Below are positions 23,961 to 24,226 of a stretch of DNA of 64,000 nt, one piece after another (the stretch's first letter is position 1; each line of letters begins with the position of its first letter). The translations under genes and the position numbers were made by a program. Under the pieces are notes generated by a model. The model saw nothing but the letters and a program-made list of their open reading frames with translations. It had not been told where the DNA came from and did no database searches. The DNA is taken from positions 51,866-115,865 of the forward strand of contig CALQZQ010000004.1 in assembly GCA_943349825.1 (NCBI GenBank), read 5' to 3'. This DNA is from Candidatus Peribacteria bacterium (GTDB taxonomy: Bacteria; Patescibacteriota; Gracilibacteria; UBA1369; 2-02-FULL-48-14).

Positions 23961-24226
23961 GTCAGGGTTTTGTCAGGTGTTTTTGTTTAGAATTTGGATG
24001 TTCACTTTGGGCCAGTCTTGGTGACTCTGACGGAGTTGTCATCCTGTCGGATCGGGTTCGTGAGCGGAGCGTTTAGCGAGCTTGCGAGCGTCCTCCGCGC
24101 AATCCACCGCTGAACAAGCGACAGCAAAAAGCCCTTTCCTACGTGGAGGGGGCTTTTTGATTTCGACGGAATTGTCATCCAAGTTCATTTTATTCCCAAA
24201 ACCCCATTTTTGCAATAATGTGCCTT
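23961..24226 (+). repeat. tRNA-like / terminator-containing repeat unit, copy 1 (variant)
   Basis: Aligns with 42457-42686 by eye across its whole length. Shared blocks are GTCAGnTTTTGTCAGG, GTTCACTTTGGGCC, GAGTTGTCATC, CCACCGCTGAACAAGCGACAGCAAAAAGCCCTTTCC and TTTTGCAATAATG. Confidence 0.75.
24126..24163 (+). terminator. intrinsic terminator within repeat copy 1
   Basis: AAAAAGCCCTTTCC-loop-GGAGGGGGCTTTTTGATTT, with two G-U pairs in the stem. Confidence 0.6.

What the first reader, a model, noticed from the sequence alone, without database searches (positions are those of the whole stretch)
23961..24226. Second diverged copy of the tRNA-like module, directly upstream of dedA, with the T-loop replaced by a 41-nt insert
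This unit is about 266 bp and aligns end to end with 42457-42686. The shared sequence includes flanks outside the putative RNA (GTCAGnTTTTGTCAGG upstream, TTTTGCAATAATG...CTTAG downstream). Here GGGTTC is followed by a 41-nt GC-rich insert (24060-24100, containing GCGGAG...CTCCGC pairing). The 10 nt CGATGGGTCC that form the 3' end of the T-stem and the 3' acceptor strand in copy 2 are missing. The downstream hairpin and terminator are retained. The unit ends 5 nt before the dedA ATG, so it could act as a leader or attenuator for dedA. In contrast, copy 2 abuts the 3' end of a convergent gene. Two copies 18 kb apart in different gene contexts argue for a mobile or duplicated functional module rather than a chance hairpin.
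Basis: seen in the sequence. Interest (0 to 1): 0.62.

Follow-up and report, generated by a model that had tools for sequence, protein, structure and literature searches.

The report
Broken copy of tRNA-mimic/antisense RNA cassette
The element upstream of dedA is a damaged extra copy of a two-gene RNA cassette I found no description of (an alanine-tRNA look-alike plus a small RNA that pairs with it): its tRNA-like top half is destroyed, its pairing hairpin and partner gene are intact, and it is not a dedA leader.

Summary
Window 23961-24226 aligns end to end with 42457-42686. In copy 1, 43 nt (24060-24102) replace 13 nt of the T loop, T stem and acceptor strand.

Both loci belong to a conserved family with six members in this 1.25-Mb CPR genome. 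It scores 50 bits or more in 21 of 28 family genomes and occurs sporadically elsewhere in the phylum. Each cassette has two parts:
- a promoter-driven, alanine-type (G3:U70, A73) mini-cloverleaf RNA with a leader/trailer helix and a bidirectional terminator;
- on the opposite strand, a sigma-70-like promoter whose -10 box lies 3-7 nt (mostly 6) before a 10-18-nt stretch complementary to the mimic's anticodon-like hairpin.

The "shared flanks" are these two promoters.

Copy 1 keeps both promoters, the D arm, the hairpin, the terminator and the partner seed. All eight hairpin differences from copy 2 preserve pairing. Copy 1 has lost the T arm and four acceptor pairs, so it cannot work as a tRNA mimic.

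No dedA orthologue in 13 related genomes has a cassette upstream, and the syntenic site in a congener lacks it. The dedA leader/attenuator idea is therefore not supported.

The parts
23961..23993 (+). Plus-strand promoter: GTCAGG (23961-23966), TTGTCAGG (23970-23977), TAGAAT -10 box (23988-23993). Predicted start near 23999-24001.
   Evidence: The same motif (catGTCAGGgaTTTGTCAGGnnnTTTTTGTTAGAAT) gave 24 hits on G000, several of them 10-20 nt before protein start codons. It is a generic promoter of this organism, not a module-specific flank.
24000..24004 (+). Leader strand GTTCA of the leader/trailer helix. It pairs with TGAAC at 24111-24115.
   Evidence: This helix covaries across the family (TTCAG/CTGAA, TCCAG/CTGGA, GCTTAG/CTAAGC). 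It is retained in copy 1.
24009..24014 (+). Remnant of the 5' acceptor strand, GGGCCA (one C deleted). Only G1-C, G2-C and G3.U can still pair, with TCC at 24103-24105.
   Evidence: The covariance-model alignment marks four acceptor pairs as broken. Copy 2 has GGGCCCA/TGGGTCC, identical to the genome's tRNA-Ala(GGC) acceptor stem.
24015..24025 (+). Mini D arm, GTC-TTGGT-GAC.
   Evidence: The arm covaries: GUC/GAC, GAC/GUC, GUA/UAC, GACA/UGUC. It is intact in copy 1.
24026..24051 (+). Anticodon-like hairpin: TCTGACGGA / loop GTTGTCA / TCCTGTCGGA, 9 bp plus one bulge.
   Evidence: Copy 1 differs from copy 2 at 8 positions. All lie in pairs and all keep pairing: 3 double compensatory changes and 2 wobble-compatible single changes (read). 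Family-wide covariation is shown.
24052..24059 (+). Remnant of the T stem 5' strand and the start of the T loop (TCGGGTTC).
   Evidence: Identical to copy 2 up to this point.
24060..24102 (+). Lineage-specific 43-nt filler that replaces the rest of the T loop, the 3' T stem and four nt of the 3' acceptor strand.
   Evidence: Shown by alignment. The sequence is unique in the genome and in all fetched loci. A 20-mer across the junction gave only a chance hit in metagenome contigs. No other family member of 50 bits or more has a comparably long match.
24103..24125 (+). TCC-A-CCG 3' end, then trailer CTGAACAAGCGACAGC.
   Evidence: Identical to copy 2 and strongly conserved across genera.
24126..24158 (.). 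Bidirectional intrinsic terminator: an A run, a GC-rich hairpin and a T run.
   Evidence: The scanner finds it on the plus strand. The hairpin folds on both strands, with two C.A mismatches on the minus strand in copy 1.
24164..24180 (-). 5' seed of the predicted partner RNA (GGATGACAATTCCGTCG). It is complementary to the hairpin's 5' strand and loop (24028-24044).
   Evidence: The direct repeat is found. The predicted duplex is -30.2 kcal/mol. The same arrangement scores 10 or more in 30 of 35 family members, against a shuffled mean of about 6.5. No third matching site exists in the genome.
24187..24215 (-). Promoter of the partner RNA: TTGCAA (24215-24210), 17 nt, TAAAAT (24192-24187). The -10 box ends 6 nt before the seed.
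   Evidence: The scanner finds it. In 29 of 29 convergent family members a TAnnnT box lies 3-7 nt (mostly 6) before the complement, and 28 of 29 have a -35 box matching at least 3 of 6 positions.
24120..24180 (-). Predicted partner small RNA, about 60 nt: seed plus shared terminator.
   Evidence: Inferred from the promoter, the seed and the terminator. No transcript data are available.
42457..42686 (+). Copy 2, the intact sister cassette: mimic at 42493-42597, terminator at about 42594-42625, partner seed at 42627-42641, partner promoter at 42648-42676 (minus strand).

Best explanation
Window 23961-24226 is one of six copies in this genome of a self-contained two-RNA cassette.

Gene 1, on the plus strand, makes a roughly 70-nt mimic derived from tRNA-Ala. 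The mimic has:
- an acceptor stem with G3:U70, A73 and CC(A/G);
- a mini D arm and a standard T arm;
- a long anticodon-like hairpin.
It is flanked by a leader/trailer helix like those of at least three real tRNA genes here, and it ends in a bidirectional terminator.

Gene 2, on the minus strand, has its own sigma-70-type promoter. It makes an RNA of about 55-65 nt. The first 10-18 nt of that RNA pair with the loop and 5' strand of the mimic's hairpin, and it ends at the same terminator. The inferred mechanism is a dedicated RNA-RNA pair in which the partner opens or masks the mimic's lower hairpin.

In copy 1 the lower half and the whole partner gene are intact. The upper half is destroyed by three lesions:
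- a 43-for-13-nt replacement in the T loop, T stem and acceptor strand;
- the four changed 3' acceptor bases within that replacement;
- a 1-nt deletion in the 5' acceptor strand.
Copy 1 therefore can no longer be processed or alanylated as a tRNA mimic. I read it as a partly decayed paralogue of copy 2. It is not a regulatory leader of dedA. Its position next to dedA is incidental.
For: Shown by computation:
- The two copies align end to end.
- The cloverleaf plus leader/trailer helix has 27 pairs, 17 of them with compensatory changes, and G3:U70 is invariant in all 10 aligned sequences.
- G000 has six members scoring 55-101 bits.
- 21 of 28 family genomes score 50 bits or more. Members also occur in another family of the order and in two genomes outside the class.
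- The partner complement scores 10 or more in 30 of 35 members, at a fixed position just after the terminator.
- A -10 box lies 3-7 nt before the complement in 29 of 29 convergent members, and the scanner finds it at both window loci.
- In two distant members the partner lies in tandem as an inverted repeat with its own TTGACA-17-TAtAAT promoter. What is conserved is therefore RNA complementarity, not a DNA direct repeat.
- Copy 2's acceptor stem is identical to this genome's tRNA-Ala(GGC).
- Copy 1's acceptor and T arm are broken. Its hairpin keeps pairing at all 8 differences from copy 2, and its partner seed follows its own hairpin.
- No dedA orthologue in 13 other genomes has a cassette upstream.
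- The syntenic site in G005 lacks the mimic, the terminator and the seed.

Inferred, not shown: transcription of either strand, processing, alanylation, and the direction of regulation.
Against: - Both RNAs and their ends are predictions.
- I could not check the insert against raw reads or a second assembly, so an assembly error is not formally excluded.
- The intact hairpin, promoters, terminator and partner seed could mean copy 1 is still functional in a way that does not need the tRNA-like top half.
- The function of the family is unknown.
- Four of 35 members with an intact mimic lack a clear partner complement.
Confidence: 0.68

Rival explanations
1. Copy 1 is still a working locus that no longer needs tRNA mimicry. 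Its plus RNA would act as a decoy or sponge through the intact hairpin. Its partner RNA would also act on copy 2, since the two cassettes can cross-pair. The T-loop replacement would then be a remodelling, not a death blow.
For: - Both promoters, the D arm, the hairpin, the terminator and the partner seed are intact.
- All hairpin differences from copy 2 are pair-preserving, and the seed follows its own hairpin, so selection acted after the duplication.
- The cross-duplexes are stable: partner 1 with arm 2 at -18.8 kcal/mol and partner 2 with arm 1 at -21.9 kcal/mol.
- The insert plus neighbouring bases folds into a long hairpin where the T arm was.
Against: - The insert is found in no other genome, and no other family member of 50 bits or more has a comparably long match.
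- Three separate lesions all hit the top half, as expected under relaxed selection.
- The closest congener with the same gene neighbours has lost the RNA gene altogether.
- The coevolution of hairpin and seed may predate the lesions.
Confidence: 0.2
2. The unit is a 5' leader or attenuator of dedA, with a transcript that either stops at the terminator near 24158 or reads through into dedA.
For: The unit is co-oriented with dedA and ends 4-5 nt before its ATG. The scanner finds no separate sigma-70-like plus-strand promoter between the terminator and the ATG.
Against: - Thirteen other dedA orthologues have no such element. Two of them have a real, divergently oriented tRNA-Arg there instead.
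- G005 has dedA with a spacer of about 105 nt and no RNA gene.
- The other five cassettes in this genome, and those in other genomes, have unrelated neighbours in both orientations. Copy 2, for example, abuts the 3' end of a convergent SLH/CARDB gene.
- The last 45 nt before dedA are accounted for by the minus-strand partner promoter.
- No alternative antiterminator pairing was seen in the folds.
Confidence: 0.04
3. The structure is a scar of site-specific or illegitimate recombination at a tRNA-like attachment site, or an assembly artefact. On this reading the insert is filler DNA left by an integration/excision event in the T loop, and nothing here is functional any more.
For: The break lies exactly in the T loop. 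In G002 and G003 an A-type cassette is followed by a 3' fragment of another family member that also starts in the T loop (TTCAACTCCCCTGAGGTCCACCA...). 3' fragments also follow members in G007 and G038. From general knowledge, T loops of tRNA genes are classic integrase targets (Williams 2002).
Against: - No integrase or phage gene was found among the ten larger ORFs scanned in the 18 kb between the two copies (the 1793-aa ORF at 32473-37854 and four smaller ORFs were not scanned).
- No terminal inverted repeats or target duplication were found at the unit ends.
- The insert matches nothing else in the genome.
- This explains the lesion, not the rest of the unit, which is a recognisable family member.
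Confidence: 0.06

Closest known systems
tRNA-Ala (Rfam RF00005), specifically this genome's own tRNA-Ala(GGC)
   Same: Shared features are the acceptor stem GGGCCCA/UGGGUCC with G3:U70, A73, a CC(A) end, a T arm with GGTTCRA, GG in the D loop, and a leader/trailer helix like that flanking tRNA-Ala(UGC) and two tRNA-like genes here.
   Different: The D arm is shrunk to 3-4 bp with a 4-5-nt loop. The anticodon arm is replaced by a 7-9-bp hairpin of variable sequence. There is no variable region. The element scores below the RF00005 gathering threshold and ARAGORN does not call it. It has a dedicated antisense partner gene. In copy 1 the acceptor and T arm are also destroyed.
tRNA-like domain of tmRNA (Rfam RF00023) and TLD-only tmRNA genes (the latter recalled from my own knowledge and from earlier scan notes)
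   Same: Both have an alanine-type acceptor with G3:U70, a T arm and a reduced D region. Copy 2 gives a weak RF00023 match of 14-22.5 bits.
   Different: The score is far below the gathering threshold of 47 bits. There is no mRNA-like domain and no pseudoknots. A normal 452-nt tmRNA gene lies elsewhere in the genome (125.8 bits). The mini-cloverleaf has a true D stem and a long lower hairpin. Copy 1 gives no RF00023 match at all.
par (RNA I / RNA II, Fst) locus of Enterococcus plasmid pAD1 and other type I toxin-antitoxin RNA pairs (from general knowledge; also named by an earlier scan note)
   Same: Two small convergent transcripts share a bidirectional terminator. Complementarity comes from short direct repeats in the DNA, and presence varies between close relatives.
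   Different: No toxin ORF is present. Every ORF of 20 aa or more across the unit lacks support. The larger RNA is a tRNA mimic, not an mRNA. Toxicity and addiction are untested.
tRNA pseudogenes and tRNA-gene fragments left by recombination at the T loop (general knowledge; Williams 2002 on integrase sublocation preference)
   Same: Copy 1 is broken exactly in the T loop, and 3' fragments that start in the T loop lie beside family members in relatives.
   Different: No integrase, island or att duplication is associated with copy 1. The parent is not a decoding tRNA gene.

Membership tests
tRNA-Ala-like mimic + antisense partner cassette (my model R1; found in no Rfam family or paper searched) | Match to the family covariance model over its full length | tested here: met
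   Copy 1 scores 55.2 bits (E=1.8e-13) over model positions 1-106. Copy 2 scores 101.2 bits. Real tRNAs score 45 bits or less.
tRNA-Ala-like mimic + antisense partner cassette (my model R1; found in no Rfam family or paper searched) | Seven-pair acceptor stem with G3:U70 and A73 | tested here: not met
   Only G1-C, G2-C and G3.U remain in copy 1, and four pairs are broken. The feature is invariant in the 10 intact members aligned.
tRNA-Ala-like mimic + antisense partner cassette (my model R1; found in no Rfam family or paper searched) | T arm: 5-bp stem and a 7-nt GGTTCRA-type loop | tested here: not met
   The loop is interrupted after GGGTTC by 43 nt, and the original 3' strand is lost.
tRNA-Ala-like mimic + antisense partner cassette (my model R1; found in no Rfam family or paper searched) | Mini D arm, long anticodon-like hairpin and leader/trailer helix | tested here: met
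   All three are present. The differences from copy 2 are compensatory.
tRNA-Ala-like mimic + antisense partner cassette (my model R1; found in no Rfam family or paper searched) | Partner gene: an opposite-strand promoter whose -10 box lies about 6 nt before a 10-18-nt complement of the hairpin, ending at a shared terminator | tested here: met
   TTGCAA-17-TAAAAT at 24215-24187. The seed at 24180-24164 is a 17-nt complement with one G.U pair, -30.2 kcal/mol.
tRNA (RF00005) | Rfam gathering score, or a call by a tRNA finder | tested here: not met
   No RF00005 match at either locus at the gathering threshold. ARAGORN calls neither locus.
tmRNA (RF00023) | Gathering score of 47 bits, plus an mRNA-like tag region and pseudoknots | tested here: not met
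   Copy 1 has no match at E up to 10. Copy 2 scores 14-22.5 bits. The real tmRNA is at C3:97248-97699.
cis-acting leader / transcription attenuator of dedA | Conserved linkage to the regulated gene across relatives | tested here: not met
   None of 13 other dedA loci has a family member upstream. G005's syntenic spacer lacks it.
cis-acting leader / transcription attenuator of dedA | Mutually exclusive terminator and antiterminator structures | tested here: inconclusive
   The folds show a stand-alone, stable terminator and no competing helix. I made no dedicated search for one.
MITE / small mobile element | Terminal inverted repeats and a target-site duplication | tested here: not met
   Apart from the terminator stem, the only inverted repeat (23990-24000 with 24176-24186) lies inside the unit and links the two promoter-start regions. 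There is no flanking duplication.
Type I toxin-antitoxin (par/Fst-like) | A small toxin ORF on the longer RNA | tested here: not met
   Every ORF of 20 aa or more across the unit lacks a start context or conservation. The longer RNA is a structured tRNA mimic.
Type I toxin-antitoxin (par/Fst-like) | Toxicity of one RNA, relieved by the other | not testable with these tools
   This needs expression experiments.

The most novel reading that the evidence does not exclude
The cassette could be an RNA-only addiction or immunity module. The alanine-chargeable tRNA mimic would be the harmful effector, and the short partner RNA its antidote. Copy 1 would then be a natural 'disarmed' cassette: the effector's top half is knocked out by three lesions while the antidote gene stays intact. 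It would persist as an orphan antidote that also cross-protects against copy 2, with predicted cross-duplexes of -18.8 and -21.9 kcal/mol.
Probability: 0.12. Interest if true: 0.85.

Novelty: new variant of a known kind. Interest (0 to 1): 0.5.

Why it matters
The cassette family combines a tRNA-Ala mimic with a co-evolving, precisely positioned antisense RNA. It matches no Rfam family, and the full-text searches I ran found nothing on it. Yet it is multi-copy in this genome and recurs across ultra-small CPR bacteria.

Copy 1 adds three things to that picture:
- The cassettes duplicate, decay and come and go between congeners.
- Decay here removed the tRNA-like top half while the RNA-RNA pairing half stayed intact and had co-evolved. 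This natural dissection suggests the pairing half is under its own selection.
- The T loop is a recurrent breakpoint.

For annotation, the locus should not be read as a tRNA, a tmRNA or a dedA riboswitch.

Tried and rejected
- Rfam at gathering and permissive thresholds gave only chance-level hits: BTnc231 at 23.7 bits against a threshold of 80.4, and tmRNA at 14 bits.
- I rejected tmRNA because a normal tmRNA gene lies elsewhere.
- I rejected a genomic island bounded by the two copies. The ten larger ORFs I scanned in the intervening 18 kb gave housekeeping-type or no Pfam matches (LDH/MDH, methyltransferase, esterase, GGDEF, polysaccharide synthesis) and no integrase. The 1793-aa ORF at 32473-37854 and four smaller ORFs were not scanned.
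- I looked for a source of the 43-nt insert and found none in the genome or in any fetched locus. A junction 20-mer hit only an unrelated high-GC metagenome contig.
- I looked for third-site targets of the six hairpin sequences. With up to 3 mismatches, the only hit with fewer than three mismatches outside each hairpin is that cassette's own partner; scattered 3-mismatch hits look like chance.
- I considered the hairpin loop as a real anticodon, because UUGUCA resembles the tRNA-Asp loop UUGUCAC. The 7-9-bp stem, the variable base at position 33 and the missing variable region make decoding unlikely. I left this as speculation.
- A possible pairing between the trailer GACAG and the loop holds in the G000 copies except copy 6, but not in distant members, so I dropped it.
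- I looked for synteny of copy 2's neighbours around A-type cassettes in other genomes and found none.

Full report
**Observation**

The unit at 23961-24226 and the unit at 42457-42686 are homologous over their whole length. MAFFT gives 79% column identity. A genome-wide DNA search with copy 2 finds copy 1 at E=1.3e-20 over positions 1-225 of 230.

Directly after GGGTTC (ending at 24059), copy 1 has 43 nt (24060-24102). These stand where copy 2 has AAATCCCGATGGG. The rest of the T loop, the 3' T-stem strand and four bases of the 3' acceptor strand are therefore gone. One C is also missing from the 5' acceptor strand.

Copy 2 folds into a cloverleaf as its minimum-energy structure. Copy 1 does not. 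ARAGORN and Rfam at gathering thresholds call neither locus.

**What the module is**

The window lies in a 1.25-Mb, 98.8%-complete genome. Earlier notes of this scan assign it to Peribacteria (CPR); I did not verify that.

Ten homologues from eight genomes (seven related genomes plus this one) gave an alignment whose consensus fold has five elements:
- a leader/trailer helix;
- a 7-bp acceptor stem;
- a 3-4-bp D arm with a GG-containing loop;
- a long anticodon-like hairpin;
- a standard T arm.

Seventeen of the 27 pairs show compensatory changes, and G3:U70 is invariant.

A covariance model built from this alignment finds six members in this genome:
- window copy 2, 101 bits;
- C2:9662-9769, 85 bits;
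- C2:50292-50401, 79 bits;
- C2:187513-187620, 72.5 bits;
- C3:159328-159433, 69.6 bits (ARAGORN calls this one 'tRNA-???');
- window copy 1, 55 bits.

Twenty-one of 28 genomes of the taxonomic family score 50 bits or more. Two congeners (G001, G005) and genus g2 have none. Members also occur in another family of the order and in two genomes outside the class.

Copy 2's acceptor stem, GGGCCCA/UGGGUCC with A73, is identical to this genome's tRNA-Ala(GGC). tRNA-Ala(UGC) and two tRNA-like genes here also have leader/trailer helices. The RNA is therefore a tRNA-Ala derivative that probably enters the tRNA-processing pathway. That last step is inference.

**The partner gene**

After the terminator, every locus repeats the 5' strand and loop of its own hairpin. 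The repeated sequence differs between paralogues and species but always matches within a locus. It scores 10 or more in 30 of 35 members, against a shuffled mean of about 6.5 and an upstream control of 8 or less.

On the opposite strand, a TAnnnT box lies 3-7 nt (6 nt in most) before the first base of the complement in 29 of 29 convergent members. A -35 box at 16-18 nt matches at least 3 of 6 positions in 28 of 29. The generic promoter scanner finds this promoter at both window loci:
- TTGCAA-17-TAAAAT at 24215-24187;
- TTGCAA-17-TAGAAT at 42676-42648.

The A run before the terminator hairpin makes the terminator bidirectional.

Two distant members instead carry the complement as an inverted repeat on the same strand, behind their own TTGACA-17-TAtAAT promoter. 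What is conserved is therefore an RNA whose 5' end pairs with the mimic's lower hairpin, not a DNA repeat.

The predicted cognate duplexes are -30.2 kcal/mol for copy 1 and -23.8 kcal/mol for copy 2. No hairpin sequence has another match with fewer than three mismatches in the genome.

**The 'shared flanks'**

The left flank, GTCAGG..TTTGTCAGG..TAGAAT, is a generic promoter motif. It gave 24 hits on this genome, several of them just before protein start codons, and it recurs in relatives. The right flank, TTTTGCAATAATG, is the -35 region of the partner promoter. Neither flank is evidence of mobile-element ends. No terminal inverted repeats or target duplications are present.

**State of copy 1**

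These parts are intact:
- both promoters;
- the leader/trailer helix;
- the D arm, which differs from copy 2 by a compensatory U-A to A-U swap;
- the hairpin, with 8 differences from copy 2, all within pairs and all pair-preserving, three of them double changes;
- the trailer, the terminator and the partner seed, which follows copy 1's own hairpin bases.

These parts are destroyed: the T arm and four of seven acceptor pairs, by three separate lesions.

The insert matches nothing else in the genome or in the fetched loci. No other family member of 50 bits or more has a comparably long match.

The cassette therefore evolved under selection on hairpin and partner after it separated from copy 2. 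Later it lost the tRNA-like top half. I read it as a partly decayed paralogue that is defective as a tRNA mimic. Whether the surviving half still does something, for example as a sponge or by cross-pairing with copy 2 (-18.8 and -21.9 kcal/mol), remains open.

**Relation to dedA**

dedA (VTT/DedA domain) has orthologues in 13 other genomes of the family. None has a family member within the flanks. Two have a genuine, divergently oriented tRNA-Arg there.

In congener G005 the same radical-SAM and dedA genes are neighbours, with a spacer of about 105 nt. That spacer aligns with the right end of copy 1 (the partner-promoter region) at about 74% by my count. It lacks the plus promoter, the mimic, the terminator and the seed. 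G005 has no family member anywhere.

Other cassettes lie in unrelated contexts and in both orientations. The leader/attenuator idea is therefore not supported.

**Gain, loss and breakpoints**

The spacer between a glycosyltransferase gene and dnaX holds a copy-2-type cassette in G002 and G003. That cassette is followed by a 3' fragment of another family member that begins in the T loop. The same spacer is empty in G000. 3' fragments also follow members in G007 and G038.

Cassettes are thus gained, lost and rearranged between close relatives, and the conserved T loop is a recurrent breakpoint. This fits the position of the lesion in copy 1. No integrase was found among the ten larger ORFs scanned between the two window copies.

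**Comparison with known systems**

The RNA works like, and derives from, tRNA-Ala. It resembles the tRNA-like domain of tmRNA, but it fails the membership tests for both.

The gene layout resembles the par RNA I/RNA II pair: convergent transcripts, a shared bidirectional terminator, and complementarity from direct repeats. That comparison is from general knowledge. Unlike par, there is no toxin ORF here.

Four full-text literature searches found no description of such a cassette. Earlier AI notes of this scan report the same kind of cassette in other CPR genomes, and one covers copy 2 of this window. I reproduced their central claims independently here, but those notes are not independent evidence.

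**Limits**

All RNA ends, processing, alanylation and the direction of regulation are inferred. The family's function is unknown.

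Noticed in passing
G000 genome-wide, e.g. window 23961-23993 and 42457-42489; C6:90291, C8:6694, C7:62114, C8:37338, C2:127648: A roughly 35-nt promoter motif, catGTCAGGgaTTTGTCAGGnnnTTTTTGTTAGAAT, gave 24 hits on the genome. 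It appears before both RNA and protein genes, often with the ATG only 10-20 nt after the -10 box. The spacing from TTGTCA to the -10 box is about 12 nt, so the upstream repeats may be a factor-binding or UP-like element rather than a -35 box.
   Followed up: partly
G000 C4:51427-51504 (minus strand, about 360 nt before the window start) and C1:204253-204329 (minus strand): Two full-size tRNA-like genes also have a convergent partner gene. One is called 'tRNA-Thr(tgt)' by ARAGORN but has the acceptor stem and D arm of tRNA-Ala(UGC), G3:U70 and an AUUGUCA loop. The other is a second 'tRNA-Asp(gtc)' with A73 instead of G73. Each partner gene has a TTGCCA-17/18-TAnTAT promoter and is complementary to several segments of the tRNA (duplexes of -42.8 and -50.6 kcal/mol).
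   Followed up: partly
G000 whole genome (ARAGORN): Only 38 tRNA genes are called. There is no tRNA-Tyr and no tRNA-Ser(UGA). If the 'Thr(tgt)' call is really an Ala-type mimic, there is also no genuine tRNA-Thr(UGU). These genes may lie in assembly gaps or have unusual forms.
   Followed up: no
L040/L019 (G002 C7:6075-6330) and L042/L018 (G003 C7), compared with G000 C2:146429-146573: The glycosyltransferase-dnaX spacer holds a complete copy-2-type cassette plus a 5'-truncated second cassette that starts in its T loop. In G003 that second cassette still has its own terminator, seed and partner promoter. The same spacer is empty in G000.
   Followed up: partly
window 23990-24000 and 24176-24186: An 11-nt inverted repeat (91% complementary) links the regions just after the two -10 boxes. 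Both predicted transcripts of copy 1 would therefore begin with GGAUG. It may be coincidence or a partial promoter duplication.
   Followed up: no
window 24126-24158: In copy 1 two terminator stem pairs are G.U on the plus strand, and so C.A mismatches on the minus strand. The shared terminator is therefore weaker for the partner RNA. Minus-strand read-through would run antisense across the mimic towards the radical-SAM gene (22834-23934), for which the scanner found no promoter of its own.
   Followed up: partly
window 32473-37854 (+) and 42683-45325 (-): There is a 1793-aa ORF that I did not examine. There is also an 880-aa SLH/CARDB surface protein whose stop codon overlaps the right end of copy 2.
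   Followed up: no
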